A stretch of 64,000 bases of DNA, from contig CALDOJ010000038.1 in NCBI GenBank assembly GCA_937912225.1, forward strand, positions 17,408 to 81,407, read 5' to 3'. The stretch comes from Candidatus Woesearchaeota archaeon (lineage in GTDB: Archaea; Nanobdellota; Nanobdellia; Woesearchaeales; GCA-2686295). Within the stretch, counting starts at the first letter, position 1, and each line of letters opens with the position of its first letter. The notes below the pieces were generated by a model that was not told the origin of the DNA, did no database searches, and saw only the letters and a list, made by a program, of their open reading frames with translations. The translations under genes were made by a program, and so were the position numbers. This document shows, one piece after another, positions 21,665 through 46,737 of the stretch.

Positions 21665-22936
21665 ATGAATAAAATGAAAGTATTGAAATTAATTCTTGTG
21701 TTAGTAATGACCATGCTTATAACCAGTATGGTAAGTGCAGTTGATTTAGGCTTAACGTCTTTAAAGATTAACGGCGAAGAGTTTGGAGATGCAGCATCAA
21801 ACCCAAGTAACTCGTTAGAAGTAAAAAGAGGCGAAGATTTAACAATTAAACTTCGTGTTAGAGCTACTGCAGATGTAAGTGATGTGCAAATTGAAGCAGA
21901 CATTTACGGTTACAGATACGCTCATAGAGAAGCAGATTCTGTTTCTGACGTTACAAAGACTTTTGACTTAGCAGAAAATGTAACTTCATTTAAGACTTTG
22001 GAATTAAAAGTTCCATCAAATATTGATAAAGAACATTTCTATTTAAGAGTTAGAGTTGCTGATAGATACTCAACTTCATATGAACAAGTATATGATTTAT
22101 TTGTTTCAGGTGTAGATGCAGAAGACGCAGTAATTATCAAAGATTACTCCTTTAGTCCATCAAATGTTGTTGCAGCAGGAAGAGCATTCACAACAACAGT
22201 AAGAGTACAAAATATTGGAGACGATACTTTAGATGACGTTAAAGTAACAGTAGAAATTCCAGAATTAAATGTTAAAGACTCAGAATACTTAGATGAATTA
22301 AGTGCTGACGAAAAAGAAACATTAGATGAATTTTTATTAAGAATACCAGATTGTGCAGCTCCAGGAGTTTATGAAGTAGAAATCACAGCAGAATTTGATG
22401 AATATGAATCATCATCAGAAACAGCTTCATTAACTATTGTTGACGGAGACACATGCGGTGTAACAGCTAGCGGAACAGGAAGAACAGTTGTATCAGTTCC
22501 AGAAAATCAAGATGTTGCACAAGGTACAGACGCAGTTTACCCATTAATGATAACTAACCAAGGAAGTACAGCAAAAACTTATGCAGTAACATTATCAGGC
22601 CTTGGAGCATGGGGAAGTGCAAGAATGGAACCATCATCAGTAACAGTTGTAGAAGCAGGTGAAACAAGCACTATTTATTTATATGTTTCAGCAAACGATG
22701 ATGCAAACTCCGGAACTAACGGCTTTAAAGCAACAATAAGTTCAGACGGTGAATCAAAAGACGTAGCATTAACTGCAAATGTTGTAGCAGATAATAGCGG
22801 AATGGGTTCATTACAAGGACTAGAAATTGCATTAGTTGTTTTAGTAATCATCTTAATCATTATTGGTTTAATAATTGGCTTCAGCAAATTAAGAAACAAT
22901 GATGACGACGACGAAGGTTCACAAACTTATTACTAA
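21665..22936 (+). CDS. Secreted cell-surface protein with N-terminal signal peptide, C-terminal TM anchor and acidic cytoplasmic tail (S-layer/adhesin candidate)
   Basis: Signal peptide MNKMKVLKLILVLVMTMLITSMVSA; a Ser/Thr/Asp/Glu-rich beta-type body with N-x-S/T sequons; C-terminal TM LEIALVVLVIILIIIGLIIGF followed by DDDDEGSQTYY. Strong SD GAGGGGG at 21657..21663. Confidence 0.6.
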   Translation: MNKMKVLKLILVLVMTMLITSMVSAVDLGLTSLKINGEEFGDAASNPSNSLEVKRGEDLTIKLRVRATADVSDVQIEADIYGYRYAHREADSVSDVTKTFDLAENVTSFKTLELKVPSNIDKEHFYLRVRVADRYSTSYEQVYDLFVSGVDAEDAVIIKDYSFSPSNVVAAGRAFTTTVRVQNIGDDTLDDVKVTVEIPELNVKDSEYLDELSADEKETLDEFLLRIPDCAAPGVYEVEITAEFDEYESSSETASLTIVDGDTCGVTASGTGRTVVSVPENQDVAQGTDAVYPLMITNQGSTAKTYAVTLSGLGAWGSARMEPSSVTVVEAGETSTIYLYVSANDDANSGTNGFKATISSDGESKDVALTANVVADNSGMGSLQGLEIALVVLVIILIIIGLIIGFSKLRNNDDDDEGSQTYY

Positions 22937-22988
22937 GTTTGTATTTTTTTTCTTTTTTTATTAACTTTTTTTATAATGGTAAATAACG

Positions 22989-25286
22989 ATGTCCATCAAA
23001 TATTTGTCTAAACTAATTATACTTCTCTTTATACTCATATCCATCATTAATTTTTCAAGTGCGATACAGCTATCAACTTCACAATCATTATTGAATATTT
23101 GTCAATGCGCACAAAAAACAGATTCATTCACAGTAACAAATGATGGAGCTTATAGCGCAATTTTTACTGTTTCAGATAATCAAGAGTTTGTAATTCTTTC
23201 TGATACAAAATTCGAATTAAAACCAGGAGAATCAAAACAAGTATTGACTTCTATTAATGCTGCTTGTGATATGAAGGGTGAATATTCTTTAGAAATATTA
23301 GTTACAACCAATTTAGGAACTGGTAAAAAACTAATTAAAACAATTAATATAGGTAAATGTCAAAACTTAAAAGCTTATTTAACTATTGATGATGAGGAAA
23401 TAAATCCTTGTAAAGAAGCAGATTATTCTATTAAAATAGAAAATACAGGTTTTTTTAAAGAAACATATGAAATAAAAGCGACTAATTTTGAAAAATATTT
23501 TAATTTATCAACTGAAGAAATAACTCTTAATCCTGATGAAACAGGATTAGTTAATGCAAAGTTAAATTTACCTTGTGATCTTTATGGAGTACAACCTGTT
23601 GAATTTTCAATAAAAGCAGTTAATAACGCTCTTATGGCTAGTTTAAAGCATGATCTTCAAGTAAATCAGTATTATGGTTATTCATTGCTTTTAGAAGATG
23701 AGTACCATGTTTGTGAAGAAGAACCTGTAAATATTCCTGTTGTTTTATCAAACGATGTTAACACTCCTAATTCTTATTCATTAAAATTAAGAGGACAACC
23801 AATAATTGCACAATTAAGTAAGACTAAAATTGAATTAGAAGGAAAGGAAGAAGAAACTTTTGAAATAGAACTTAATATTCATGAAGGGAGAAGTGTTGGA
23901 ACATATAATTTTCAATTAGTAACTTCAACAGGATATGGAGATACTTTTAATGATGCAAATATTACTTTAGTAATTGAAGATTGTTATAATCATAAAATTG
24001 ATTTAACAGGACCTAAAAAATTCTGTTCAGGAGAAGAAGAATTTAATCTAAACATTAGAAATGATGGTGTTTATACTGAAGAAGTAACTTTAGAAACTAT
24101 TGAAGGTTTTGCAGAGTTAGAAGATGAAAAAATAACTTTAGAATCTGGATCTGAAAAAAATGTTGTTTTAGAAGTAAAAACTGAAGATGTTAGCAAACGT
24201 TATTCATTATGGGCAAAAGCGAAGTTAGATAATGATTTAGAAGTTGTAGACAGTCAAGTATTAAATGTTAAATCAAATGATGAATGTTATTTTGTAGATG
24301 TTGAAAAAACAAAATTTGATGTCAAAGCTCATAAAATAAATGGGATAGTTATTGAATTAGAAAATAAAGGTTTAGTTGGAGCAGATTATGAATTAAAACT
24401 TGAATCAGAACCTTGGATGCATCTAAATGAAACAGAAATTCATTTAGAACCAAAAGAAGAAAAAAATGTTGTGTTATTCTTGAATCACACAGAAGAAACT
24501 GCTTTTGGCAAGTATAAAGCAAACTTAACAATTCAAACAGATAATGCAATTTATCTTAAAGAAATAGTAATTGATTTAGAAAACAAGTCTTTGATTGTAA
24601 GAGCATTTATTTATTCTAAAGAAAACCCTTGTAAAACTTTAACAGTACTATTAGGATTAGTATTCATAATTTTATTATTAAAAGTCATATTTAGTAAGAA
24701 AGCGAAAGGAAAAATAAAAGTAAAAACAGTTTTATTAAGCCTTTTAATATTAATAATTCTTTCAGGTTTAGCTTTAGGAGGAACTTATTTGTACAAAGGA
24801 ATGCCTACTTTATATTCTGAATTAGATTTTTCAGAAGCTAATCCAGTTAAACATGTATGGGCAGAAGATACAGTTTATACAATTGATTTCTTTGATTACT
24901 TTGAAGATCCTGACTCTGATGAAATAGTATTTTCAGTTTCAGAACTTGAAAATATAGATTCAAGTATTGAAGGAAATATTCTAACTTTAACACCAGAAGA
25001 AGATTGGTTTGGAGAAAGAGCAGTTATATTTACAGCAACAGATTCAAAAGAAGCATCTGTAAGTAGTTCGCCAATATTCCTTAAAGTATTAGATGTAGAA
25101 GAATTTAATTTTTGTAATATTTATAACAAGAATTGTTTATATGTAAATGATGGACTTTTAATGTTGTGTTTATTATTAGTTTTTATTATTGTTTTGAAAA
25201 AAGCAAGAAAAGTTATATTTGGACGAAAAAAAGGTTCTAAGAACAGTAAAAAAACTAATAAGAAGAAAAGTAAAAAAAGAAGATAA
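22989..25286 (+). CDS. Large secreted cell-surface protein with signal peptide, internal and C-terminal TM segments and a basic C-terminal tail
   Basis: 765 aa. Signal peptide MSIKYLSKLIILLFILISIINFSSA, repetitive beta-rich domains, hydrophobic segments near residues 550-600, and a C-terminal TM plus KKARKVIFGRKKGSKNSKKTNKKKSKKRR. Confidence 0.55.
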   Translation: MSIKYLSKLIILLFILISIINFSSAIQLSTSQSLLNICQCAQKTDSFTVTNDGAYSAIFTVSDNQEFVILSDTKFELKPGESKQVLTSINAACDMKGEYSLEILVTTNLGTGKKLIKTINIGKCQNLKAYLTIDDEEINPCKEADYSIKIENTGFFKETYEIKATNFEKYFNLSTEEITLNPDETGLVNAKLNLPCDLYGVQPVEFSIKAVNNALMASLKHDLQVNQYYGYSLLLEDEYHVCEEEPVNIPVVLSNDVNTPNSYSLKLRGQPIIAQLSKTKIELEGKEEETFEIELNIHEGRSVGTYNFQLVTSTGYGDTFNDANITLVIEDCYNHKIDLTGPKKFCSGEEEFNLNIRNDGVYTEEVTLETIEGFAELEDEKITLESGSEKNVVLEVKTEDVSKRYSLWAKAKLDNDLEVVDSQVLNVKSNDECYFVDVEKTKFDVKAHKINGIVIELENKGLVGADYELKLESEPWMHLNETEIHLEPKEEKNVVLFLNHTEETAFGKYKANLTIQTDNAIYLKEIVIDLENKSLIVRAFIYSKENPCKTLTVLLGLVFIILLLKVIFSKKAKGKIKVKTVLLSLLILIILSGLALGGTYLYKGMPTLYSELDFSEANPVKHVWAEDTVYTIDFFDYFEDPDSDEIVFSVSELENIDSSIEGNILTLTPEEDWFGERAVIFTATDSKEASVSSSPIFLKVLDVEEFNFCNIYNKNCLYVNDGLLMLCLLLVFIIVLKKARKVIFGRKKGSKNSKKTNKKKSKKRR

Positions 25287-30259: not shown

Positions 30260-30661
30260 TTAATCGTTCAGACACATGGATTCTTTTGAAATTGTTCCCA
30301 TGAGGACTTGTTCAACACAACCAGTTACTAGTTCTTCAGGATAACAAGTTCCTACAATATTTTTTAAAGGACCTTTTGTAAGATTGATTTTTTGTTTATC
30401 AGTTAATGTTGGTGGGAAACAAACTCCACTTATGCACTGTCCTCCATCAGTACATATTTCACCAGCATTTTTGTAGGAAAGGAGACAAGTTTGATTGTCA
30501 GTCCATTGCCCACCAACCCTTTCACACACTGGTTCATCTTTTGGTGGTCTATGACTTGGTAAGGCTGAATAAAGAAGGCCTAAAACAATTCCAAATAAAA
30601 TGATGCTTGCAAAAATTATGATGATAAATAATAATGATTTAGAAGTATTTTGTTTTTGCAT
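30260..30661 (-). CDS. Small secreted/membrane-anchored cysteine-rich protein
   Basis: N-terminal TM/signal anchor followed by about 70 residues with 10 Cys (C..GG.W.....C.....AGEICTDGGQCISGVC...). Confidence 0.45.
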   Translation of the reverse strand: MQKQNTSKSLLFIIIIFASIILFGIVLGLLYSALPSHRPPKDEPVCERVGGQWTDNQTCLLSYKNAGEICTDGGQCISGVCFPPTLTDKQKINLTKGPLKNIVGTCYPEELVTGCVEQVLMGTISKESMCLND

Positions 30662-36010: not shown

Positions 36011-38236
36011 TTATCCTATATTAACATTTACAGAAGTCATTATACTTCCTGCAATCATGTTGAATAATAGTATTATAACAAATGCAATCGCAGTATAAGT
36101 TATTGAAGTTCTAAACATGTTATTACCAATCATATATTTTTCATTAAGTTTATCAGCGCCATTTTCAATACCATTAATAAGAATAGTTAATATATAGACT
36201 ATTTGAACAACGTATAATCCAACAACTATCTGAAAGAAATAAGTAGGAACACCTGTACCAAATAAATTTAACATTCCTGCATTAGCCGCTCCTTGTTGTG
36301 ATTGAGATGCTAATAAAGATAATTTCTCACTTAAAGTACCAAGAATAGTTGTAATCATACTAGTTATTCCAATAACGATTCCCGCAATAGCAGGTGTTAA
36401 GAATGCGATTTGTGATTTCATACTACTAATAATGTCCGACATTAAATCTCTAAGTCTTTCATCAACTCTATGCATCTCTTTAATATAAGTAGAAACATTA
36501 ATTAGTGCTTGACTAGCAATAAGAGGACCTTTCTTACTACTTTCAATTAAAACTTTCATAGAACTCTCAATAATCGGTGAAGGATAATATTGAATAGCGC
36601 CAGATTTTTCATCAAAAATAGCTCGTTCAACATTCATACCTAGTTTTCGAATATTAATACTAACTAATTCAAAAAATTTTCCAGAAATACTTCCTTCCAT
36701 TACATCAGCTACTTTGCTAAATGCAATTTCTGCAGGTAAACCATCACCCAGTCGATTTCCTAATTGAAATAATGCAGATGCGAACTCTTGCTCTAATTTC
36801 TTTGTTTGTTCTCGAATCTTAATAATGTTTTTAGATTTTAATTTATAATAAAGACCAATTCCCAAACCAAAAGCTAAAGGCATTCCTAAACTTAGAAGAA
36901 CAGCTCCTAATCCAAAAGGACCGACAAGATTACCAGTCACATTTCCTTCAAGAATTTCTTCTCTATAACCAAGAAGATAGAATTTAGAATTTGGATGAAC
37001 TAAGGTATTCATACAAACAAGACCACCACTACCAATACTACAATCTGAATTAGGAAACATTTGATGTAGAAGTAATGGCAAAATTCCAACAAAGAATAAT
37101 GCTCCAAAAATTATCGCACAAAGAATTAATGGCGGAATTTTTATTTCAGTATTACCAATATTAATTAAAATATATTTATATTTTCTAAGTGCTTTATTTT
37201 TTTTACTAATATCACTATCTCCATAACCAGTAGGTCTTTTTGAAAGAATAGCTTTACTCATATAAAAAACAATTAAGGGAAGAATAATATTATATAATGT
37301 AAATAAATGAAACCATTTAACTTCCGGCATGAAACTTACAACTAAAGGCAAAATAACCAATCCTAAAATTGGTAGAATAATTCCAAGCATGTGTAAAGTT
37401 GTAATAGGTGATTTTAGATTTTGAGCATAATGAAGCATTTTTTCATAAGTTTCATCAAGTATGACAGTTAAAGATTTATCAAGAGAATTAAGTCTTCGGT
37501 CTTCAGAACCTTCATATAATGAAGCTTCAATTAAATGCATACTTTCAATAAATTCTCGGTTCCATTTTTCCCAAGTTTGAAGATATGCATCTAACGATTC
37601 TTTAATGGAAAAGAATTTTTGAGTTTCAATATTCCAAACAATTTTTTTTAAATCAATAGATAAAGGAGGGGATAAATGTTCTGCAGCAAAATCAATTGCT
37701 AACTCTAAGTTAGAAGTGTGCCGCATATAAGTAACAATATAGAAGATACACAATACCATTTGATTACTAGCTTTCATACGCCAATTATTAGCAAAAAAAT
37801 ATGGTAGTTTACCAAGAGGAATCATTAAACCAATACCTGTAATAAAAGCTATGAATACAAAAAAAGTGCTTCCAGTTCCTGTAAGAGCAAGAGGAACTCC
37901 ATACCCAAAAATGAAACCAAAAATTATTATGAACAAAGGAAAAGTCATTGCAAAACTAGTTGCACCAGTAGGGGTTATATTTAAATGACAAATATTAATT
38001 GATTCTTGTAATTCAGGAATTTTATTTTTATCAGGTTTTATAGAAATTATTTTTTCAGAAAGATTACAAGCTTTTTCATAAAGTGATAAATGTTTAGGAA
38101 GATACTCTTCTTTAAAATGATCATAATCTTTAGTATTAATAGATTTTAAATTAGAATGTTTACCTTTTAATTCAGATTCAATTTGTTCCTGATATCTCTT
38201 TTTAAAATCTTCTATGTCTTTATCTCTATTCACCAT
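36011..38236 (-). CDS. Large polytopic membrane protein, type II secretion system F / TadC / FlaJ-like platform protein
   Basis: 741 aa with multiple TM clusters separated by cytoplasmic helical domains. Its start overlaps the stop of the upstream secretion ATPase, an arrangement typical of FlaI-FlaJ / TadA-TadC pairs. Confidence 0.5.
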   Translation of the reverse strand: MVNRDKDIEDFKKRYQEQIESELKGKHSNLKSINTKDYDHFKEEYLPKHLSLYEKACNLSEKIISIKPDKNKIPELQESINICHLNITPTGATSFAMTFPLFIIIFGFIFGYGVPLALTGTGSTFFVFIAFITGIGLMIPLGKLPYFFANNWRMKASNQMVLCIFYIVTYMRHTSNLELAIDFAAEHLSPPLSIDLKKIVWNIETQKFFSIKESLDAYLQTWEKWNREFIESMHLIEASLYEGSEDRRLNSLDKSLTVILDETYEKMLHYAQNLKSPITTLHMLGIILPILGLVILPLVVSFMPEVKWFHLFTLYNIILPLIVFYMSKAILSKRPTGYGDSDISKKNKALRKYKYILINIGNTEIKIPPLILCAIIFGALFFVGILPLLLHQMFPNSDCSIGSGGLVCMNTLVHPNSKFYLLGYREEILEGNVTGNLVGPFGLGAVLLSLGMPLAFGLGIGLYYKLKSKNIIKIREQTKKLEQEFASALFQLGNRLGDGLPAEIAFSKVADVMEGSISGKFFELVSINIRKLGMNVERAIFDEKSGAIQYYPSPIIESSMKVLIESSKKGPLIASQALINVSTYIKEMHRVDERLRDLMSDIISSMKSQIAFLTPAIAGIVIGITSMITTILGTLSEKLSLLASQSQQGAANAGMLNLFGTGVPTYFFQIVVGLYVVQIVYILTILINGIENGADKLNEKYMIGNNMFRTSITYTAIAFVIILLFNMIAGSIMTSVNVNIG

Positions 38237-40514
38237 TTTTCATCTTTGTTTTTCTAACTTCTCTCTTTAGCCATTCATTCCATTCAAAGAAAATGGTGTC
38301 AGAATCAAGATTGCCTTTTTTATCCTTGACTTTATCACTGATTCGGTGGAATTGATCATTACATTGAATTATAAAAGGCGCTTCTAAAAGATCAAAGTTT
38401 TTTTCCTTTTCAGCAACTGCAAGAATTGTTTCTTTAATTTTTGTTCTTAAAAGAATATTATCCCACACAGCGTCCCAATTACCAGCCCACTCTTTAACAT
38501 TACCAGCAATTGCTTTTAACAATTCACTATCACCATTAATTAATTCATCACTAGGTTCTAACATATCAGTTTTAGAATTATATTTCATTAAATCAACAAA
38601 ACCACCTTCTCTTAAAGGGTCATCTTCCCAATGTTTTCGAACTTCAGTAATTTGAGTTATTCTTCGCCATTTATGAAGCCCATCAGCACTTTTAATAGGA
38701 TTTGCAACAACAATTATATCTGTTGCTTTAAAGCTAGTTCTAGGAACATCAAGATCATTTACAACTCGGTCAAACACTCCGTAAGGCGAATCACCATGAA
38801 TAGTCCCTGCAACAACATTTGCAAGTGCACCAACCCTCATAGCTTCATACAACGCTTTAGCTTCTTTACTTCGAACTTCACCAATAATTAAACAAGAATC
38901 TCCTAATCTAAGAGTTGTTCGAATACCTTCATCAGCCGGTACTTCAGAGCTACCTTTTGCTAGAGCAGAAGCAACCTTCATAGGTTGAATATTATAACCC
39001 ATTTTTCGAAGGGAAGTTGTAGGTAGCTCTAAAGTGTCTTCGACCGTGATTATACGATATTTTCTCATGATTTCAACCATTAACGAACCTAATAAAGAAG
39101 TCTTTCCTGCACTTCTAGTTCCTGCAATAAGCATGGTTCGACTTCCATCAATAATAAAACTAAGAATACCTGCAGCAAGAGGTGTAAGCATATCATTTTT
39201 TATAAATAAAGGAAGAGTCCAAGGTTTATCCCTATGTCTTCTAAAAGCATAAGCAATTCCGCTAGGATCAAGCGGAGGACCAATCACACCAACTCTAGCA
39301 TTTGCAATACCAGGAATTTCAATTTCAGTATCAAGAACAGGATTTGCTTCATCTAATGGTCTTCCAGAAATCAATCTAAGTTTTGAAGCCCATGAGTCTC
39401 CATCACTAACAGAAGGTAAGATATTAGTCCTGCAATCACCAAAATCTTGATGAACCATAAACATAGGAATTTGACCCATAGGACTATTTATTGTAATATC
39501 CTGGACTTTAGGGTCTGCAAGTAAAATTTCAATAAGACCAAAACCAACCGTGTACCTTATAAGAATCTGAGTAAGTTCTTCAATTTTATCAGGTGTAAGT
39601 TTAACATTATGATAATTAGCTAATTCTTCAATTAAATTATGTCCTACATTGTGAAAAACTTCTCTCATTCGTTCAGGATCAACAAATTCTTGTTTTTCGG
39701 GTTTATGCTCGGCCATTATATTTCGAGCTAAATCCAATAATTCATATTCTTCTTCTTCAAGTTTGAATTCAGGTGGTGTTATATGATATAAATATTGAAT
39801 ATTATCAGGGAGTTCAAAGATGACAACTTCAGTATTTCCAACTGTGTAACTGTCAAGCTCAACAGCATTTTTTGGATAAGTTGCCATTAACTTTGTAAAC
39901 ATAAAATCTGGTTTGATAGATGGAGTGAATACTTTTCGATAAATTTCTCTATCGCCAACTTTATGACCTGGCATGAAAGGTTTTAAAATTGTTATTAATT
40001 TAGTATTATCAAGTAATTGTAGAATATATTGAAGCAAGGTAATATATTTTTTATGACCTTCAATTATAATCGAATTAGCACTTTTATCAAGAGCGATATT
40101 CTCTTGTCTAAGAATTCTTTTAAGAGAAACATAACAACCAACAGGGTCTTTTTTCATCATATTAAAGACTGCGTTGTGAATTTCATTATATCGTTTATCA
40201 GCTTCACCATAACCCTTAAGATTTTCATAACTGAATACATCTCTACTTTTAACTAATTGATTATATAAGTGAGCTATTTCACTCACCATACTAGTTTGTG
40301 CATAATCATATTCATAATCTCTTTTCTGAGAAAAAACAATTTTTGTAACACCAGGATTTTCAATTAAGAATTCTGCAGCTTTAGACATATAAACTTCATC
40401 ATCTTCAATAGATGGAACTCTCATGTTGTTTTCGCAGTCTATCTTTAAGATGTTGTCTTCTCCCTGTCTTAGGGTTTCATAAGAAAACATATTTTTATCT
40501 GTGCTATCAGCCAA
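38226..40514 (-). CDS. Type II/IV secretion system ATPase (FlaI/PilB/GspE/VirB11 superfamily) with long N-terminal extension
   Basis: Walker A LIAGTRSAGKTSLLGSLM, a downstream Asp/His box region, 762 aa. Confidence 0.7.
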   Translation of the reverse strand: MADSTDKNMFSYETLRQGEDNILKIDCENNMRVPSIEDDEVYMSKAAEFLIENPGVTKIVFSQKRDYEYDYAQTSMVSEIAHLYNQLVKSRDVFSYENLKGYGEADKRYNEIHNAVFNMMKKDPVGCYVSLKRILRQENIALDKSANSIIIEGHKKYITLLQYILQLLDNTKLITILKPFMPGHKVGDREIYRKVFTPSIKPDFMFTKLMATYPKNAVELDSYTVGNTEVVIFELPDNIQYLYHITPPEFKLEEEEYELLDLARNIMAEHKPEKQEFVDPERMREVFHNVGHNLIEELANYHNVKLTPDKIEELTQILIRYTVGFGLIEILLADPKVQDITINSPMGQIPMFMVHQDFGDCRTNILPSVSDGDSWASKLRLISGRPLDEANPVLDTEIEIPGIANARVGVIGPPLDPSGIAYAFRRHRDKPWTLPLFIKNDMLTPLAAGILSFIIDGSRTMLIAGTRSAGKTSLLGSLMVEIMRKYRIITVEDTLELPTTSLRKMGYNIQPMKVASALAKGSSEVPADEGIRTTLRLGDSCLIIGEVRSKEAKALYEAMRVGALANVVAGTIHGDSPYGVFDRVVNDLDVPRTSFKATDIIVVANPIKSADGLHKWRRITQITEVRKHWEDDPLREGGFVDLMKYNSKTDMLEPSDELINGDSELLKAIAGNVKEWAGNWDAVWDNILLRTKIKETILAVAEKEKNFDLLEAPFIIQCNDQFHRISDKVKDKKGNLDSDTIFFEWNEWLKREVRKTKMKNGE

Positions 40515-40609: not shown

Positions 40610-41032
40610 ATGACTGATCCACAATTATTTCCAGAACAATCTTCTGTTGCAGAACATGAAAAAAAAGCTTCGAACGAGTCTTCTTTGTATGAAAATATCT
40701 CAACAAATGTAACGACAGTCGGATCAAGGTTAAGAATTCTAGAAGAAAGGTATGTAAACTTAAGAAAGAAAGCTCAAATGACTGACAATAATTTATTAGA
40801 TTTTGAAAAAAATATGAACGGAGAAGTTAAATTAGTTAATCAAGAAGTTTTAGAGCTTAAGAAACAACTTTCTGAAGTACTTGAACGTTTAGGTCAAATG
40901 GCTTCTGAACTTAAGAATGTTGTTAGACAAACTGATTTTAAAACAGTCGAATCATATCTTGATATGTGGCAACCAATGAATTTTGTTACAAGAAATGAAC
41001 TAAAAAAATACCTTGAAGAGAATAAAGGGTAA
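40610..41032 (+). CDS. Hypothetical coiled-coil protein
   Basis: 140 aa with heptad-rich segments. Divergent from the pilus ATPase operon. Confidence 0.4.
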   Translation: MTDPQLFPEQSSVAEHEKKASNESSLYENISTNVTTVGSRLRILEERYVNLRKKAQMTDNNLLDFEKNMNGEVKLVNQEVLELKKQLSEVLERLGQMASELKNVVRQTDFKTVESYLDMWQPMNFVTRNELKKYLEENKG

Positions 41033-41088: not shown

Positions 41089-41733
41089 ATGGCTTTATTC
41101 GGAAAGAAACAAACAGCGGATTCTAATGATATTCCGGTAGATCAAGTTTCAACTATGAAAGCACAAGGTTATGATAACAATCAAGTGGTTCAAGCCTTAC
41201 AAAGAGATGGTTATACTTCATCTCAAATATTTGAAGCTATGAATAGAGTAGATTTACAACCTTTAGAAACACCTCCTGCTCAACAAGAAATGGCTGCTCC
41301 TCAAGAGGATTATTATCAAGATCAAGGTTTTCCAGAGGCTATGCCTCAACAACAGGACTTTGCTCAACCAAGACCATATCCTGAACAAGCACCACCACAA
41401 GTAGCATCTGTGCAAACAGAAGAGCTTGTAGAAGCGATAATTGATGAGAAATGGAATGAGCTTGTTAAAGATATAAATAAGATTGTTGAATGGAAAAATA
41501 AAACTGAAGCTAAAATTGCGACTATGGAGCAAAAATTTGAAGATTTAAAAGATTCTTTTGATAAATTACATCAAGCAGTTATTGGAAAAGTAGGTGAGTA
41601 TGACCAAAATATTTTATCTGTTGGTGCAGAAGTTAAAGCTATGGAAAAAGTTTTTTCAAAAGTACTCCCTGTATTCACAGAAAATGTTAACGAACTTTCT
41701 AGAGTAACTGATATAATGAGAAAAAAGAAATAA
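41089..41733 (+). CDS. Hypothetical Pro/Gln-rich coiled-coil protein
   Basis: Short N-terminal helical domain (QGYDNNQVVQALQRDGYTSSQIFEAM), a low-complexity P/Q linker, and a C-terminal coiled coil. Confidence 0.4.
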   Translation: MALFGKKQTADSNDIPVDQVSTMKAQGYDNNQVVQALQRDGYTSSQIFEAMNRVDLQPLETPPAQQEMAAPQEDYYQDQGFPEAMPQQQDFAQPRPYPEQAPPQVASVQTEELVEAIIDEKWNELVKDINKIVEWKNKTEAKIATMEQKFEDLKDSFDKLHQAVIGKVGEYDQNILSVGAEVKAMEKVFSKVLPVFTENVNELSRVTDIMRKKK

Positions 41734-41735
41734 TT

Positions 41736-42326
41736 CTAACTTGAAGCTTTTGTTAGGAATATAACCATTATTGTTCCTATTAGCATTATTACTAACATTC
41801 CTAACACTTTTGGATGAAAGATTGTATTAATCATATTAGTTGAGAAATCATTTGTATCTAATGAACCATCACCTGCAGTTGTAGCTTCTTTGATAGTAGT
41901 AGAACCACCATCTTCATCACCGCCATAACCATCATCTAATAATGTTTGACCCATAGTATTAGCTAATCCAAATATTAGGATTATAACTGAGATAACAATT
42001 ATCCATGAATAAACTTGTGGATCTGATACTAGTTTAATAAGATCAAGTTTTCCACCGCCAAACATTCCAAGTATAATTAAAACAAAAAAAACAAAGAAAA
42101 TGGCTACTAAGAACCATGGTGCCATAAAGTTAATCATTAAAACTGCTGCTTCAGACATTACAACTAAAAATCCAATTGCTAAAGCTATTATGGCATAAAT
42201 TCCTTTAGCTTCTTTCCCGAAAGGTTTTGCAAACATCAGTAGTGCGTAGATTACTGAAAATGCCAGTAAAAAAACGAAAACTACTGAAAAGTTTTGCAAG
42301 ATTCCTACATCAAGGAAAGTAGCCAT
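41736..42326 (-). CDS. Membrane protein, member of a tandem three-paralog family (copy 3)
   Basis: 196 aa, about 5 TM. N-terminal pattern LDVGILQNFSVVFVFLLAFSVIYALLMFAKPFG is shared with the two upstream ORFs. Confidence 0.5.
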   Translation of the reverse strand: MATFLDVGILQNFSVVFVFLLAFSVIYALLMFAKPFGKEAKGIYAIIALAIGFLVVMSEAAVLMINFMAPWFLVAIFFVFFVLIILGMFGGGKLDLIKLVSDPQVYSWIIVISVIILIFGLANTMGQTLLDDGYGGDEDGGSTTIKEATTAGDGSLDTNDFSTNMINTIFHPKVLGMLVIMLIGTIMVIFLTKASS

Positions 42327-42333
42327 TTTTTAT

Positions 42334-42942
42334 TTATTTGGATGGAGGTGCTCTTCCTTTTAAGACTTGACCTAAGTCTTTCATGACTCCTCCGAATCCT
42401 TTGTTAGCGCCGTCGCTTTTATCTTCTTTTGTGATGAACCAGATTATAATTCCAAAGACTAATACCATAACAACTAATGCTTGTGTATCAGAATTCATAA
42501 CCCATCTTGGAGCTGATTTACCCCATGCACCACCAGCTGCACCAAAGATATAAACTACTGCAACAATTGAGAATATAACTGCCCATCCTGCAAGATTTGT
42601 TCCTGCAATGTCAACGTTTCCGCCAAAGACACCTATGATTAATAATAACATGATTATTGCAACACCAACTAATGCAATATTTGGTAATGCTGAGTTAATA
42701 ACTTCTACAACATCAAAACCCGTATTGCTATATAATCCGTAATAATCACCTGTTACGTGTGGGATTATTACTGCTAGTGCCATTACTAATGCTATTACAA
42801 CATTGAAATTTTTTCGGCCTTCGCCAAGAATTTTTGTTTTTTGTAATACTGCAAAGATGATTGTAAAAACCAATATAAATGGAATTATAACATCTGAGAT
42901 TCCCCAGTATTCTAAAGTTCTTAAGTAATTTTGTAGAGACAT
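42334..42942 (-). CDS. Membrane protein, tandem paralog family (copy 2)
   Basis: 202 aa. LEYWGISDVIIPFILVFTIIFAVLQKTKILG matches FNELGIYDVVLPFLLVFTMVFAILEKTRVYG of copy 1. Confidence 0.5.
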   Translation of the reverse strand: MSLQNYLRTLEYWGISDVIIPFILVFTIIFAVLQKTKILGEGRKNFNVVIALVMALAVIIPHVTGDYYGLYSNTGFDVVEVINSALPNIALVGVAIIMLLLIIGVFGGNVDIAGTNLAGWAVIFSIVAVVYIFGAAGGAWGKSAPRWVMNSDTQALVVMVLVFGIIIWFITKEDKSDGANKGFGGVMKDLGQVLKGRAPPSK

Positions 42943-42944
42943 TC

Positions 42945-43502
42945 TTAATCTTCCTCCTTAGCTTTTTTCTTTTGTTTAGTTTGATCTGATGTAACATAAA
43001 ACATTAATCCTACAATCACAATAACTAGAATTATGGCTGCAACTGCTCTTGAATCCCAATGTCCTGAAAGATAGTCATATATTTTTTGAAGCCAACCCAT
43101 TGCGTTGAAGAATATTAATACTATTCCTGCAAACATGATAACCATGAAAAAGGAATTCCAACCTTTTGATAAGTAAAATTCTTCGTCTTTGTTAAAAGAA
43201 CCTGCTAACATTAAGAACAATATTGATGCTAAAAGTAGAATTACTACTTGTGATGAGACTTTTAGAATGATTTCAACTAGTTTTGACGATGCTACGACAA
43301 AAAAAGCAATTACAAATGCAGTCATAGAATTGAGATTTTTCTTTGTGTAAGTTTTATCACCGATTTTTTCTACACCATAAACCCTTGTCTTTTCTAGAAT
43401 TGCAAACACCATTGTAAAAACTAATAAGAAAGGTAGCACAACATCATAAATTCCAAGTTCATTAAAGAACTGAATCGTTCCTCTAAAAAGTGATTCGGCC
43501 AT
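42945..43502 (-). CDS. Membrane protein, tandem paralog family (copy 1)
   Basis: 185 aa with the same topology and a conserved N-terminal helix. The three genes are separated by 2-7 nt. Confidence 0.5.
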   Translation of the reverse strand: MAESLFRGTIQFFNELGIYDVVLPFLLVFTMVFAILEKTRVYGVEKIGDKTYTKKNLNSMTAFVIAFFVVASSKLVEIILKVSSQVVILLLASILFLMLAGSFNKDEEFYLSKGWNSFFMVIMFAGIVLIFFNAMGWLQKIYDYLSGHWDSRAVAAIILVIVIVGLMFYVTSDQTKQKKKAKEED

Positions 43503-43748
43503 TACACTTTGAAATATTGAAATAAGACTATATAAATTTTTTGATTTTATTCTCTGAAATTCCTTGTTTTATTTATAAAGAGTTGATTTATATTCAATAA
43601 ACTACTTTAGCTATTAAAGTAATTAATTAATTAGTGATTTGAATCTAAAAAGAATTAACTTTAAAAACATAGACGAATAAACTAAGATTAAAATGCTAAT
43701 TTCGAAAAGTTTTCTTTTTGAAATTTCAAAATTTAAAGGTGAAACATT

Positions 43749-45146
43749 TTGTTAAGAACAAATACGTGCGGAGAATTAAATAAGAAGTTTGCAGGCAAAG
43801 AAGTAACTTTATCTGGTTGGGTAGACTCGATGAGAATCAGTGGAAAAATTGGATTCTTAACAGTTAGAGATCGTTATGGAAAAACTCAATGTTTCTTAGG
43901 AAAAGACATAATTGAAGAATTTGGAGAAATTAGACGAGAATCTGTTGTCCAAATTACTGGTCTTGTAAAAGAAAGACCTGATAATCAGAAAAGAGATGAA
44001 CCAACAGGAGAAATAGAACTTTCTGCAACTAAATTAGCAGTATTATCTGCTGCTGAACCTTTACCTTTAGAATTGGATGATTCTATTCAAACAAGCGAAG
44101 ATAATAGATTAAAATACAGATATTTAGATTTAAGAAGACCAACAATGGTAAATAATCTTACTATGAGGCATAAATTAATCCAGTATATTAGAAATCATAT
44201 GAGTGATAATAAATTTTTAGAAATTACAACTCCTATTTTAACTAAGAGCAGTCCAGAAGGAGCCAGGGACTATTTAGTTCCAGCAAGACTTCATCCTGGA
44301 AAATTCTATGCTTTACCTCAAGCACCACAACAATATAAACAATTATTAATGGTTGGAGGAATTGATAGATATTTTCAAATTGCACCTTGTTTTAGAGATG
44401 AAAATGCAAGAGCAAATAGAGCGCCAGGTGAATTTTATCAGTTTGACGTTGAAATGAGTTTTGTTCATCAAGAAGATATTCTAAATATGATTGAAGAATT
44501 AATGATTAAATTAGTAAAAGACTTATTTCCAGAAAAGAAAATTACAGAAGTACCATTTCCAAGATTAGAGTTTGATGACGTTATGAAAAAGTATGGAACT
44601 GACGCGCCAGATATCAGAAAAAATAAAGATGATCCAAATGAATTAGGATTTTGCTTTGTTGTAAACTTTCCATTATTTGTAAAACAATCTGAAGAAGATT
44701 TTTTTCATGGAGCAGGAAAAGAATGGGGTCCAAGCCATCATATGTTTACAATGCCACGCGTTGAAGATTTAAAATTATTAGATAGTGAGCCTGGAAAAGC
44801 AAGAGCTTACCAACATGACCTTGTTATGAATGGAATGGAAGTTGGTGGTGGAAGTATTAGAATTCATGACCCAAAAATTCAGCAAAAAATCTTTGATTTA
44901 ATTGGTTTTTCAGAAACTCAAGCAGCAGAATTCAAACACATGATAGAAGCGTTCACTTATGGAGTTCCTCCACATGGTGGAATTGCACTTGGAGTTGATA
45001 GATTACTAATGATTCTGATGAATGAACCAAGTATTCGAGAAATCATCGCGTTTCCAAAGAATAAAGATGCAAGGGACGTTACAATGGATGCACCATCAAA
45101 GGTTTCTAAAGAACAGTTGGATGAATTAGGAATTAAGACTAAATAA
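43749..45146 (+). CDS. aspS: Aspartate--tRNA ligase, bacterial-type sequence signatures, short (465 aa)
   Basis: N-terminus RTNTCGEL..VTLSGWV, flipping loop YALPQAPQQYKQLLM, motif 2 FRDE (bacterial form rather than archaeal FRAE), motif 3 GGIALGVDRLLMIL. Confidence 0.75.
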   Translation: MLRTNTCGELNKKFAGKEVTLSGWVDSMRISGKIGFLTVRDRYGKTQCFLGKDIIEEFGEIRRESVVQITGLVKERPDNQKRDEPTGEIELSATKLAVLSAAEPLPLELDDSIQTSEDNRLKYRYLDLRRPTMVNNLTMRHKLIQYIRNHMSDNKFLEITTPILTKSSPEGARDYLVPARLHPGKFYALPQAPQQYKQLLMVGGIDRYFQIAPCFRDENARANRAPGEFYQFDVEMSFVHQEDILNMIEELMIKLVKDLFPEKKITEVPFPRLEFDDVMKKYGTDAPDIRKNKDDPNELGFCFVVNFPLFVKQSEEDFFHGAGKEWGPSHHMFTMPRVEDLKLLDSEPGKARAYQHDLVMNGMEVGGGSIRIHDPKIQQKIFDLIGFSETQAAEFKHMIEAFTYGVPPHGGIALGVDRLLMILMNEPSIREIIAFPKNKDARDVTMDAPSKVSKEQLDELGIKTK

Positions 45147-45444: not shown

Positions 45445-46737
45445 ATGAAATACACAACAATACAAGAATCTATGGACATAGGAACAGGTGAAGTTTCAAC
45501 AAGAGGTTGGGTCTATAGAGAACGAGGATCTAACAAAATTAAGTTTATCGTTCTCAGAGATAGCACTAATATAATACAATGTGTGCTTAAAAAAGATAAT
45601 TTCGCTAATAACTGGGATGAAATAGATGGTATTCAAATGGAAACTTCAATTGAACTAGAAGGAACTATAAAAAAAGATGATAGAGCTCCAACTGGATATG
45701 AAATTGATGTTAAAGAATACAAGATTGTTGGAAGTTCAGATAGTTTTCCAATTACAAAAGATCAAAGCCCAGAATTCTTACTTGATAACAGACATTTATG
45801 GATTAGAAGTAGAAAAATGGTTTCTATTATGAAAATTCGTTCTGCTTATGGTCAAGCAAGAGAAGAATTTTTCAAAAAAGAAGGTTTTTGGAGATTTGAT
45901 ACTCCAGTTCTTCAACCAAACCAATCAGAAGGTGGATCTACAGTATTTGAAGTTAAATACTATAAAGTAAAAACCTACTTAGCTCAAACTTGGCAATTAT
46001 ATGGTGAAGCTGCAATCTTTGCATTAGAAAAGGTTTACAATACAGGACCAACTTTTAGAGCAGAAAAGAGTAAAACTTCAAGACATCTTTCAGAATTTTG
46101 GATGGTTGAAACAGAAGTCGCATGGTGGAAGTTAAAAGAAATAACTGAATTTGCAAAGAAAGAATTAAAGTACTGTATTTCAAAAGTTGCAGAAGAACTA
46201 CCAGAAGAATTCGAATCGTTAGGAAGAGATCCAAAAGAATTAATTGCAATGTGCAAAAAGGAATGGCCAACAATGAAGTATCGAGAAGTTCTAAAAATCT
46301 TAGAAGAAAAAGACGGAATGAAAGTTAAGTTTGGAAAAGATCTTAGAACTGTTGAAGAAGAAACTATTATGCAACATTTTGATACGCCAGTTGTTGTAAC
46401 ACATTATCCACAAGAAGTTATGGCTTTTTACAAACCAAAAGATCCTGATTATCCTGATGAAGCTCTTTGTTTTGATATGCTTTGTCCGGAAGTTGGAATT
46501 GAAATTGTTGGTGGAAGTGAACGAAGTCTTGACATAAAAGAAATGTCTGAGAATTTAAAACGAGATGGTGAAAATCCTGATGACTATCAATTCTACTTTG
46601 ATTTAAGAAAATATGGATCTGTTCCACATTCAGGATATGGTGTTGGATTAGAAAGAGTTATTCAATGGATTTGTAAACTTGATAACATTAAAGACGCGAT
46701 TGGATTTCCAAGAACTATGCTTAGATGGACCCCATAA
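45445..46737 (+). CDS. asnS: Asparagine--tRNA ligase
   Basis: YLAQTWQLYGEAAIFALEKVYNTGPTFRAEKSKTSRHLSEFWMVETEVAW matches the AsnRS motif-2 region (..SGQLNGE....[32 protein letters not shown]) rather than AspRS SPQLYKQ. The C-terminus is GFPRT. Confidence 0.75.
   Translation: MKYTTIQESMDIGTGEVSTRGWVYRERGSNKIKFIVLRDSTNIIQCVLKKDNFANNWDEIDGIQMETSIELEGTIKKDDRAPTGYEIDVKEYKIVGSSDSFPITKDQSPEFLLDNRHLWIRSRKMVSIMKIRSAYGQAREEFFKKEGFWRFDTPVLQPNQSEGGSTVFEVKYYKVKTYLAQTWQLYGEAAIFALEKVYNTGPTFRAEKSKTSRHLSEFWMVETEVAWWKLKEITEFAKKELKYCISKVAEELPEEFESLGRDPKELIAMCKKEWPTMKYREVLKILEEKDGMKVKFGKDLRTVEEETIMQHFDTPVVVTHYPQEVMAFYKPKDPDYPDEALCFDMLCPEVGIEIVGGSERSLDIKEMSENLKRDGENPDDYQFYFDLRKYGSVPHSGYGVGLERVIQWICKLDNIKDAIGFPRTMLRWTP

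What the first reader, a model, noticed from the sequence alone, without database searches (positions are those of the whole stretch)
41736..43502. Three tandem paralogous ~190-aa polytopic membrane proteins next to the pilus-like operon
The three consecutive genes are 2-7 nt apart and share a conserved N-terminal amphipathic/TM segment (..DV.IPF.LVFT..FA.L.KT...G) and topology, but diverge elsewhere. I do not recognise the family. Their N-termini do not look like class III pilin signals. Tandem triplication beside a secretion ATPase suggests structural or membrane-embedded components of the same apparatus, or an unrelated small-solute transporter family.
Basis: seen in the sequence. Interest (0 to 1): 0.6.

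Follow-up and report, generated by a model that had tools for sequence, protein, structure and literature searches.

The report
Conserved archaeal membrane-protein trio, function unknown
Three neighbouring genes encode related five-helix membrane proteins of an uncharacterised family that occurs in hundreds of Woesearchaeota-type (DPANN) archaeal species, usually beside two coiled-coil proteins and a pilus-type ATPase, so it is a real lead on an unknown membrane machine whose function is not yet shown.

Summary
Genes A (43502-42945), B (42942-42334) and C (42326-41736) lie on the minus strand, 2 and 7 nt apart. They encode proteins of 185, 202 and 196 aa, each with five predicted membrane helices, the N-terminus outside and the C-terminus inside. 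Profile comparison proves they are paralogs: A-B E 2.5e-39, B-C 3e-18, A-C 1e-17.

The three are ancient orthologous groups in fixed order A-B-C in 79 of 80 species-level genomes. The family has about 3,300 representatives at 50% identity, all stand-alone proteins of roughly 170-240 aa among the 150 listed. Named sources are almost all Woesearchaeota/Nanoarchaeota-type MAGs.

No Pfam, NCBIfam, PADLOC, PDB-sequence or PDB-fold relative was found, and no paper describes the family.

The trio is its own operon, not part of the ATPase operon. It is convergent with two coiled-coil genes (cc214, cc140), and these are divergent from a 762-aa FlaI/TadA/CpaF-like ATPase and a 741-aa polytopic partner. 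This block is kept in about 70-80% of genomes, whichever gene is used to select the loci. Flanking genes are kept in 35-47%, apart from an AspRS-like gene (73%). The block breaks at every junction.

Best reading (about 0.4): a hetero-oligomeric membrane scaffold that, through the coiled-coil proteins, serves the type-IV-filament-like machine. An autonomous complex or a channel is not excluded.

The parts
42945..43502 (-). Gene A, 185 aa. First paralog, five predicted membrane helices, N-terminus out and C-terminus in, Lys-rich cytoplasmic tail.
   Evidence: ORF. Ortholog present in 79/80 species loci directly upstream of B. Family alignment A3. Topology.
42334..42942 (-). Gene B, 202 aa. Second paralog and the best conserved of the three. 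It has a conserved extracellular loop (P61 H62 ... D77 ... N83 ... P87).
   Evidence: ORF. 919 homologs, none with a Pfam domain. Alignment A2. AlphaFold models with pLDDT 73 and 79.9.
41736..42326 (-). Gene C, 196 aa. Third and most divergent paralog. Near-invariant MATFLD N-terminus and an HPK motif before helix 5. The outer loop between helices 4 and 5 is acidic, Gly/Ser/Thr-rich and variable in length.
   Evidence: ORF. 118 homologs. Alignment A4. Topology. Family lengths 165-243 aa.
43529..43536 (-). TTTATATA, an archaeal TATA-box-like element about 30 nt upstream of the ATG of A. It implies a leaderless or very short-leader transcript that starts the A-B-C operon.
   Evidence: Read directly from the sequence. 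The promoter role is inferred, not tested.
42953..42957 (-). GGAGG Shine-Dalgarno-like element 10 nt before the ATG of B, inside the 3' end of A.
   Evidence: Read directly from the sequence. Its role is inferred.
41089..41733 (+). cc214, 214 aa. Cytoplasmic protein with a small UBA-like three-helix head, a Pro/Gln-rich linker and a conserved coiled-coil C-terminal domain. Convergent with C; the two stop codons are 2 nt apart.
   Evidence: ORF. Pfam shows only weak UBA and coiled-coil hits. Present next to the trio in 62/76 species loci and in all five divergent lineages examined.
40610..41032 (+). cc140, 140 aa. Cytoplasmic coiled-coil protein with a conserved C-terminal Y...W.P.NFVT motif. 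Transcribed divergently from the ATPase across a 95-nt spacer.
   Evidence: ORF. Alignment A6. Present next to the ATPase in 54/63 ATPase-selected loci and next to the trio in 51/72 loci.
38226..40514 (-). 762-aa secretion-superfamily ATPase of the FlaI/TadA(CpaF)/GspE2 type, with an N-terminal extension of about 250-300 aa beyond the region that aligns with solved ATPases.
   Evidence: Pfam T2SSE 5.6e-12. PDB Archaeoglobus GspE2 2oap 2.9e-28, CpaF 3e-21, FlaI 2e-16. NCBIfam FlaI 1e-31, below the curated cut-off. 67% mean column identity among orthologs.
36011..38236 (-). 741-aa polytopic membrane protein. Probably a highly diverged FlaJ/TadC-type platform. Overlaps the ATPase gene by 11 nt.
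   Evidence: ORF. Always follows the ATPase. Only 1 of 10 orthologs gives a weak T2SSF hit (E 0.014, spanning the whole profile). No PDB sequence relative. Identity as a platform is inferred.

Best explanation
A, B and C are three ancient paralogs that are co-transcribed from one archaeal promoter. Most likely they assemble into one hetero-oligomeric complex in the cytoplasmic membrane. Each subunit has five helices, a short N-terminus outside, Lys/Arg-rich first and third loops inside, and (in A and B) a Lys/Arg-rich C-terminal tail inside.

The complex most likely acts as a lineage-specific membrane scaffold or anchor. Its cytoplasmic face would bind the two soluble coiled-coil proteins cc214 and cc140. 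Through them it would be coupled to the neighbouring giant FlaI/TadA-type ATPase and its polytopic platform partner, which form the core of a type-IV-filament-like machine in Woesearchaeota-type DPANN archaea.

In this reading the five accessory proteins play a part comparable to ArlX/ArlCDE in archaella or PilN/PilO in bacterial pili: they hold or position the motor in the membrane.

Shown: paralogy, topology, clade-wide conservation, fixed gene order, and the recurrent neighbourhood.

Inferred: hetero-oligomer formation, binding of the coiled-coil proteins, and any role in the ATPase machine.
For: Paralogy and unit character:
- hhalign E-values from 1e-17 to 2.5e-39.
- A-B-C in the same order and on the same strand in 79/80 species loci and in all additional divergent loci. 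Even where every neighbour differs, the three genes stay together.
- Gaps of 2 and 7 nt, a TATA-like box before A and a GGAGG before B.

Linkage chain, loci selected on B:
- cc214 62/76, cc140 51/72, ATPase 43/57, platform 38/51.
- Genes just outside the block are kept less often: translin 34/72, a lactamase-fold gene 22/63, an OB-fold gene 17/48, GlyRS 15/42.

Linkage chain, loci selected on the ATPase (upstream room at least 5 kb, n=35):
- full block 24, cc214+cc140 only 3, cc140 only 4, none 4.

Partial blocks point the same way. cc140 stays with the ATPase when the trio is gone. cc214 and cc140 stay with the trio when the ATPase is gone (L024, L064, L069, L082, L086, L087). The coiled-coil pair therefore bridges the two membrane modules.

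In divergent lineages whose upstream genes are completely different (L088, L089), the whole block persists.

The ATPase pair belongs to a real type IV filament system: it is homologous to GspE2/CpaF/FlaI, and in L088 it is followed by an array of genes with class III signal peptides.

Precedent: archaeal type IV pilus loci often carry lineage-specific membrane proteins and coiled-coil proteins, and one ATPase subclade also found in nanoarchaea has no identifiable cognate pilins (PMC4858521).
Against: - The trio is a separate operon, convergent with the coiled-coil genes. It is not co-transcribed with the ATPase.
- It occurs with no coiled-coil gene or ATPase within 8.5-10 kb in at least five species (L018, L020, L045, L057, L070). 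The ATPase pair occurs alone in 4/35 loci.
- An unrelated AspRS-like gene is kept upstream in 40/55 loci, so inherited gene order explains part of the pattern.
- No sequence or fold similarity links A, B or C to any known pilus, secretion or motor component.
- No physical-interaction evidence of any kind was obtainable. A multimer structure prediction could not be run.
- The platform identity of the 741-aa protein is itself weakly supported.
Confidence: 0.4

Rival explanations
1. The trio and the two coiled-coil proteins form an autonomous five-protein membrane/coiled-coil module, for example for envelope organisation, division, membrane shaping or cell-cell contact. This module has no mechanistic tie to the ATPase. 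It sits next to the ATPase only because that was the ancestral gene order.
For: - The trio-cc214-cc140 association is the tightest. It is present in all five divergent lineages examined, two of which lack the ATPase within 10 kb (L086, L087).
- Further loci have both coiled-coil genes but no ATPase (L024, L064, L069, L082).
- The AspRS-like control shows that inherited gene order can persist at about 73%.
Against: - cc140 stays with the ATPase in 7 of the 11 ATPase-selected loci that lack the trio.
- cc140 shares a short divergent promoter region with the ATPase. This argues that at least the coiled-coil proteins serve the ATPase machine.
- Junctions inside the block are kept about twice as often as most flanking junctions.
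Confidence: 0.3
2. A, B and C are subunits of a heteromeric small-solute transporter or ion channel, and the neighbourhood is incidental.
For: - Polytopic, about 190 aa, in tandem paralogous copies.
- Conserved polar residues at helix ends and in the outer loop (Asp at the start of helix 1 in A and B; P-H, D and N in the B loop; HPK in C).
- 11/49 B members give sub-threshold hits to the Gate (nucleoside recognition) domain, best E 2.4e-4.
- From my own knowledge: Gate-domain proteins such as SpmA/SpmB and YjiG/YjiH also occur as tandem pairs of similar size.
Against: - The Gate signal is absent from C (0/49) and nearly absent from A (1/50). Each paralog collects a different set of weak hits, with Acyl_transf_3 leading for A, which is the pattern of compositional noise.
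- No transporter fold was matched.
- No solute-binding protein or ATP-binding cassette gene was found to recur next to the trio in the neighbourhood clustering. The recurrent partners are coiled-coil proteins.
Confidence: 0.17
3. A, B and C are unconventional substrates or filament subunits of the ATPase/platform pair, replacing the pilins that are missing from the locus.
For: - No class III signal-peptide genes were found anywhere in the 64-kb window.
- Such genes are absent next to the platform gene in almost all loci.
- Makarova et al. noted that the cognate pilins of one ATPase subclade also found in nanoarchaea could not be identified.
Against: - Five hydrophobic helices spread over the whole protein, cytoplasmic Lys-rich loops and tails, and no [KR]-[GA] cleavage motif followed by a hydrophobic stretch.
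- Extraction of such a protein from the membrane into a filament is implausible.
- One lineage (L088) does have a normal pilin array after the same ATPase/platform pair, together with the trio.
Confidence: 0.03

Closest known systems
Lineage-specific accessory membrane and coiled-coil proteins of archaeal type IV pilus loci (Makarova et al. 2016, PMC4858521). Examples: coiled-coil arCOG07564 in ATPase subclade 4F, and membrane proteins arCOG07264/07329 of the Sulfolobus bindosome locus.
   Same: Uncharacterised membrane proteins plus cytoplasmic coiled-coil proteins that recur beside a FlaI/TadA-type ATPase and a TadC/FlaJ-type membrane protein. Clade-restricted and poorly conserved in sequence. 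Pilins are not always encoded nearby.
   Different: Here there are three paralogous five-helix proteins in fixed order as their own operon, conserved across at least 458 species-level genomes. Homology to any of those arCOGs could not be tested. The trio also occurs in other contexts, which by that paper's criterion weakens assignment to the pilus system.
ArlX / ArlCDE scaffold proteins of the archaellum motor
   Same: Coiled-coil proteins that surround or dock the FlaI-type ATPase at the membrane. This is the role proposed here for cc214 and cc140, anchored by A, B and C. It is an analogy only.
   Different: No sequence relationship was detected; the only hit is FlaC_arch at E 0.11. ArlX carries its own membrane anchor, whereas here anchor and coiled coil would be separate polypeptides. 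No ArlH, ArlF/G or archaellin genes are present in the locus.
PilN/PilO (and GspL/GspM) alignment proteins of bacterial type IV pili and type II secretion (from my own knowledge)
   Same: Paralogous small inner-membrane proteins, encoded in tandem near the ATPase and platform genes, which form heteromers that connect the cytoplasmic motor to the envelope.
   Different: Those proteins cross the membrane once and have periplasmic ferredoxin-like domains. A, B and C have five helices, and only C has a sizeable outer loop, which is low-complexity. No homology was detected.
Tandem Gate-domain (PF07670) membrane-protein pairs such as SpmA/SpmB and YjiG/YjiH (from my own knowledge)
   Same: Tandem paralogous polytopic proteins of about 150-230 aa. 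This is the best recurring weak Pfam hit for B.
   Different: All hits are below the Pfam threshold, and the hit fails in paralogs A and C. No fold support.
'Module 98' of Castelle et al. 2021 (PMC8204110): 51 protein families specific to Pacearchaeota and Woesearchaeota, mostly of unknown function
   Same: Same clade restriction and the same lack of annotation. These families plausibly belong to that set.
   Different: Membership was not verified. The paper describes neither the trio nor its neighbourhood.

Membership tests
Type IV pilin / archaellin (class III signal-peptide proteins) | N-terminal class III signal: a short basic leader ending in [KR]-[GA], followed at once by a hydrophobic helix of about 20 residues | tested here: not met
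   A has FRG but it is followed by TIQFFNELGIYD, with charged residues. B and C have no such motif. The regex scans of the window did not pick them up, whereas true examples were picked up in L088.
Type IV pilin / archaellin (class III signal-peptide proteins) | A single N-terminal membrane helix followed by an extracellular globular domain | tested here: not met
   Five hydrophobic helices span the whole protein, with Lys/Arg-rich cytoplasmic loops and tails.
FlaJ/TadC/GspF platform proteins (Pfam T2SSF, PF00482) | A cytoplasmic T2SSF helical domain between membrane helices | tested here: not met
   No T2SSF hit for A, B or C, or for about 50 members of each family, at E up to 0.1. The loops are too short to hold such a domain.
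Gate / nucleoside-recognition domain transporters (PF07670) | A Pfam match at or above the gathering score, consistent across the family | tested here: not met
   B family 11/49 members, best E 2.4e-4 and below threshold. A family 1/50. C family 0/49.
MotA/ExbB/TolQ stator proteins (including ZorA) | A MotA_ExbB membrane domain | tested here: not met
   No hit for A, B or C in Pfam, NCBIfam or PADLOC. Only the coiled-coil protein cc214 matches the coiled-coil tail of ZorA2 (PADLOC E 1.2e-5, NCBIfam 0.033). That match is coiled-coil similarity, not stator homology.
FliP/SctR-type export-gate proteins | Fold match to the FliP/SctR helical-hairpin subunits | tested here: not met
   Chains from 8axk, 8wk3, 7cg4 and 6s3r appear only at E 2-10, probability 0.14 or less and TM-score about 0.2-0.27, for both models.
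NuoJ/ND6 subunit of complex I | Significant sequence-profile match to the five-helix subunit | tested here: inconclusive
   The superfamily profile aligns collinearly with E. coli NuoJ (profile positions 28-176 to residues 12-158), but at E 0.74-1.3. Foldseek gives no support. I treat this as chance.
Accessory components of an archaeal type IV pilus locus (criteria of Makarova et al. 2016) | Predicted membrane or secreted protein recurrently encoded next to the ATPase and TadC/FlaJ genes | tested here: met
   ATPase within 10 kb in 38/48 B-selected species loci. Trio upstream of the ATPase in 24/35 ATPase-selected loci.
Accessory components of an archaeal type IV pilus locus (criteria of Makarova et al. 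2016) | [quoted passage not shown] | tested here: not met
   The trio is its own operon. It stands alone among housekeeping genes in L018, L020, L045, L057 and L070. The criterion is quoted from PMC4858521.
Obligate hetero-oligomer of paralogous subunits | Physical A-B-C complex | not testable with these tools
   Only indirect evidence: strict co-occurrence, fixed order and tight spacing.

The most novel reading that the evidence does not exclude
The trio and the two coiled-coil proteins are a previously unrecognised five-protein module: a ring or scaffold of three paralogous five-helix subunits with a cytoplasmic coiled-coil cage. It would replace the known motor-anchoring proteins (ArlX/ArlCDE, PilMNO) in a Woesearchaeota-wide type-IV-filament-like machine that has a giant ATPase and mostly no adjacent pilins. 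Such a machine could be used for attachment to, or exchange with, host cells.
Probability: 0.25. Interest if true: 0.7.

Novelty: new variant of a known kind. Interest (0 to 1): 0.5.

Why it matters
Woesearchaeota-type archaea are abundant, uncultivated, small-genome organisms that are thought to depend on other cells. How they attach to or exchange material with partners is unknown.

A five-gene set is retained across hundreds of species next to a pilus-type ATPase in these small genomes. No domain database or solved structure recognises it. That makes it a concrete candidate for a lineage-specific part of the cell-surface machinery.

If the link to the ATPase holds, it would show a new way of anchoring a type IV filament motor in an archaeal membrane. 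If it does not, the trio is still one of the most widespread uncharacterised membrane complexes of this clade and a defined target for structure prediction and cryo-tomography.

Tried and rejected
- **Family libraries on A, B and C.** Pfam, NCBIfam, PADLOC and PHROGs gave nothing above threshold.
- **Pfam scans of about 50 members of each paralog family.** These returned scattered sub-threshold hits that differ between paralogs: Gate 11/49 in B, Acyl_transf_3 11/50 in A, DUF2070 in 3-6 members of each. I rejected them as compositional noise. JGI names attached to some homologs (MdoB-like, CAAX protease, YajC, Na+ transporter) are of the same kind.
- **Profile searches against PDB sequences** with the B, A, C and superfamily alignments. 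The best results were a YajC helix (E 0.036) and NuoJ (E 0.74). Rejected.
- **Two AlphaFold models of B** (pLDDT 73, then 79.9 with a 150-sequence alignment), searched with Foldseek against the PDB. No match better than E 1.
- **Coiled-coil proteins.** Pfam and PDB profile searches gave only generic coiled-coil hits and a UBA-like head. Paralogy between cc214 and cc140 is suggestive only (hhalign probability 16.5%).
- **Platform protein.** No PDB relative. Only 1 of 10 orthologs touches T2SSF.
- **Domain fusions.** In the profile search of 1.84 billion representatives, the top 150 hits are all stand-alone proteins of 171-240 aa.
- **Viral origin.** No relatives in IMG/VR.
- **Prepilin-peptidase idea** (conserved Asp at helix 1). 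Rejected: there is no second catalytic motif, no Peptidase_A24 hit, and by the inferred topology the Asp faces outward.
- **Literature.** No paper describes this trio. The nearest are general statements on archaeal pilus-locus accessory genes and clade-specific unknown families.
Full report
**What is there**

Three minus-strand ORFs are present: A at 42945-43502 (185 aa), B at 42334-42942 (202 aa) and C at 41736-42326 (196 aa). A's stop codon and B's ATG are 2 nt apart. B's stop codon and C's ATG are 7 nt apart.

A TTTATATA element lies about 30 nt upstream of A's ATG (43529-43536). A GGAGG lies 10 nt before B's ATG. No terminator-like site lies within the trio. The simplest reading, which is an inference, is one leaderless or short-leader A-B-C transcript.

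The window has about 30% G+C.

**Are they paralogs?**

I extracted the three genes from about 80 species-level genomes, built family alignments and compared the profiles:

| Comparison | Probability | E-value | Columns |
|---|---|---|---|
| A-B | 100% | 2.5e-39 | 169 |
| B-C | 99% | 3.2e-18 | 148 |
| A-C | 98.9% | 1.1e-17 | 86 |
| A-cc214 (negative control) | 0.3% | not significant | n/a |

Cross-species BLAST shows three orthologous groups: each window protein is 38-57% identical to its counterpart in other genomes and 20-35% identical to the other two paralogs. The triplication is therefore ancient.

**Topology**

Hydropathy and charge statistics on the three family alignments give five hydrophobic helices.

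- The N-terminus is short and acidic or neutral.
- The first loop is Lys/Arg-rich (2.0-4.3 basic residues on average).
- The second and fourth loops are acidic.
- The third loop is moderately basic.
- The C-terminal tail is basic in A (3.0) and B (7.6). C ends only a few residues after helix 5.

This gives N-terminus out and C-terminus in.

In C the fourth loop is long, acidic, Gly/Ser/Thr-rich and variable. C proteins range from 165 to 243 aa. This fits an outside location.

AlphaFold models of B place helices at 2-12, 15-36, 44-64, 78-106, 117-136, 151-171 and 184-194. With a 150-sequence superfamily alignment the model improves to pLDDT 79.9 and pTM 0.59, with residues 1-60 above 90.

**Distribution**

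- B has 919 homolog clusters at 90% identity. None has a Pfam domain. Those that carry a source name are labelled hypothetical or spuriously, and are almost all from Nanoarchaeota or Woesearchaeota MAGs.
- C has 118 detectable homologs from the same sources.
- In one genome per GTDB species, at least 458 genomes encode a B relative. The 80 best are Woesearchaeota, Nanoarchaeia or Nanobdellota MAGs, some with evidently wrong automatic labels.
- A superfamily profile finds 3,317 representatives at 50% identity with E up to 1e-3, and 1,899 with E up to 1e-10. The 150 best are all stand-alone proteins of 171-240 aa matched end to end. No domain fusions appear among them.
- There are no relatives in viral contigs.

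**No known relatives**

- Pfam, NCBIfam, PADLOC and PHROGs give nothing above threshold.
- Scanning about 50 members of each paralog family against Pfam gives only scattered weak hits, and these differ between paralogs: Gate in B, Acyl_transf_3 in A, and a few DUF2070 in all three. True remote homology should converge on one family, so I treat these as noise.
- Profile searches of PDB sequences give only a YajC helix (E 0.036) and a collinear but non-significant NuoJ match (E 0.74).
- Foldseek of both models against the PDB finds nothing better than E 1.

**Neighbourhood in the window**

The trio is convergent with cc214 (41089-41733, plus strand). The two stop codons are 2 nt apart. Upstream of cc214 on the same strand is cc140 (40610-41032). 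It is divergent from a 762-aa ATPase (40514-38226, minus strand) across 95 nt. The ATPase overlaps by 11 nt a 741-aa polytopic membrane protein (38236-36011).

- **ATPase.** It is a diverged member of the FlaI/TadA(CpaF)/GspE2 group: PDB 2oap 2.9e-28, CpaF 3e-21, FlaI 2e-16. NCBIfam FlaI scores 1e-31, far below the curated cut-off.
- **741-aa protein.** It has no PDB relative. Only 1 of 10 orthologs gives a weak T2SSF hit (E 0.014), though that hit spans the whole domain. Its platform role is inferred from position, size and that one hit.
- **cc214.** It has a small UBA-like head, a Pro/Gln-rich linker and a conserved coiled-coil domain.
- **cc140.** It is a coiled coil with a conserved C-terminal W.P.NFVT motif.
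- Neither coiled-coil protein has a recognisable family.
- **Pilins.** I found no class III signal-peptide genes in the window.

**Is the linkage real?**

Among 80 species loci selected on B, A-B-C is in order in 79. Clustering all ORFs in these loci gives the following retention:

| Gene | Loci with gene / loci with room |
|---|---|
| cc214 | 62/76 |
| cc140 | 51/72 |
| ATPase | 43/57 |
| 741-aa platform-like protein | 38/51 |
| Translin (flank) | 34/72 |
| Lactamase-fold gene (flank) | 22/63 |
| OB-fold gene (flank) | 17/48 |
| GlyRS (flank) | 15/42 |
| AspRS-like gene (flank) | 40/55 |

Everything else is below 20%. The AspRS-like gene is an important exception. It sits at variable distance, and it shows that part of the pattern is inherited gene order.

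I then selected 80 metagenome loci on the ATPase instead. HMM classification of the 35 loci with at least 5 kb upstream gave:

| Content upstream of the ATPase | Loci |
|---|---|
| Full block (trio + cc214 + cc140) | 24 |
| cc214 + cc140 only | 3 |
| cc140 only | 4 |
| None | 4 |

The reverse cases also exist.

- Trio plus both coiled-coil genes but no ATPase within 8.5-10 kb: L024, L064, L069, L082, L086, L087.
- Trio plus cc214 only: for example L017.
- Trio alone among housekeeping genes: L018, L020, L045, L057, L070.

In divergent lineages whose upstream genes are entirely different, the full block persists (L088, L089; L005 also keeps it). Where the ATPase is missing, the coiled-coil pair still persists (L086, L087).

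The picture is three modules: [A B C], [cc214 cc140] and [ATPase platform]. They are usually contiguous and separable at every junction. cc214 leans towards the trio and cc140 towards the ATPase. This chain is the main argument that the trio is functionally connected to the ATPase machine. It is suggestive, not conclusive.

**Is the ATPase pair a filament machine?**

Besides the homology, one lineage (L088) has an array of at least five small genes with textbook class III signal peptides directly after the platform gene: MKKRGQ|ELS..., MKKG|FSLA..., KKRGS|KLS..., RKKGQ|LGW..., NKRGQ|IES....

Such arrays are absent next to the pair in nearly all other loci. [quoted passage not shown] They also documented lineage-specific membrane and coiled-coil proteins in archaeal type IV pilus loci (PMC4858521).

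Woesearchaeota MAGs are reported to carry and express fla genes (PMC11606122).

**Most likely mechanism**

I commit, at about 0.4, to the following. A, B and C form a hetero-oligomeric five-helix-per-subunit complex in the cytoplasmic membrane. Its basic cytoplasmic loops and tails dock the soluble coiled-coil proteins cc214 and cc140. Together these anchor or organise the giant ATPase and its platform partner. The role is comparable to ArlX/ArlCDE or PilN/PilO.

- Shown: paralogy, topology, conservation, fixed order, and recurrent neighbourhood in both directions of selection.
- Inferred: complex formation, docking, and any role in the machine.

Rivals:

- An autonomous trio-plus-coiled-coil module (0.3).
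- A heteromeric transporter or channel (0.17).
- Unconventional filament subunits (0.03, nearly excluded by topology).

**Comparison and novelty**

What it may work like: accessory scaffolds of type IV filament machines.

What it is a member of: no described family.

Every membership test against a named family failed or was inconclusive. It meets one of the two criteria used to call archaeal pilus-locus accessory genes (recurrent co-localisation) and fails the other (never occurring in another context).

The families probably fall within the Pace-/Woesearchaeota-specific 'Module 98' of unknown-function families (PMC8204110), but I could not verify that. No paper I could find describes the trio.

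**Verdict**

This is a real, ancient, clade-wide operon of three paralogous membrane proteins of an uncharacterised family. It has a well-supported but unproven association with two coiled-coil proteins and a pilus-type ATPase.

Interest is moderate (0.5). It is a good, specific target for multimer prediction, genome-level co-occurrence analysis and tomography, but no function is established.

Noticed in passing
L088:16200-20400: Directly after the ATPase/platform pair lies an array of small same-strand genes with class III signal peptides (MKKRGQ|ELS, MKKG|FSLA, KKRGS|KLS, RKKGQ|LGW, NKRGQ|IES). It is the only clear adjacent pilin array among the roughly 85 loci scanned with the class III signal search.
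   Followed up: partly
L005:11827-11973 and L089:11817-11966: A 48-49 aa ORF sits immediately upstream of the ATPase start in two divergent lineages. It could be a conserved micro-protein or a mis-called ATPase start. There is no room for it in the window's 95-nt spacer.
   Followed up: no
window 40610-41032 and 41089-41733: The two coiled-coil proteins align collinearly over 114 columns (hhalign probability 16.5%, E 0.0015). They share a C-terminal P-x-(N)F-(V)T-x-N-E-L-like motif, so they may themselves be distant paralogs.
   Followed up: partly
window 43749-45146 and 45445-46737: Two Asp/Asn-tRNA-synthetase-like genes (465 and 430 aa) lie side by side just upstream of the trio. An AspRS-like gene is retained upstream of the trio in 40 of 55 species loci, which makes it a useful control for inherited gene order.
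   Followed up: partly
window 21665-25286; L001:6872-9330: Pairs of large, probably surface-exposed proteins with a signal-like N-terminus and a C-terminal membrane anchor. In L001 such a pair sits directly upstream of gene A. In the window a comparable pair lies 16 kb away.
   Followed up: no
window 38226-38236: The ATPase gene (TTG start at 40514) overlaps the following 741-aa membrane-protein gene by 11 nt, which suggests translational coupling. The ATPase is far better conserved (67% mean column identity) than the trio (35-54%).
   Followed up: partly
L090:3707-4207 versus window 41736-42326: One public gene call for C starts 30 codons later (166 aa instead of 196 aa). The near-invariant MATFLD N-terminus across the family supports the longer form.
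   Followed up: yes
window 41089-41733: cc214 matches the long coiled-coil tail of the Zorya protein ZorA2 (PADLOC E 1.2e-5, NCBIfam 0.033). This is probably generic coiled-coil similarity, but ZorA is a membrane stator with a cytoplasmic coiled-coil tail, which makes the analogy interesting.
   Followed up: no
window 30260-30661: A 133-aa Cys-rich protein with an N-terminal basic stretch and then a hydrophobic helix (MQKQNTSKS|LLFIIIIFASIIL...). It is the only loosely pilin-like or signal-anchor ORF my first scan found in the window, and it is not near the ATPase.
   Followed up: no
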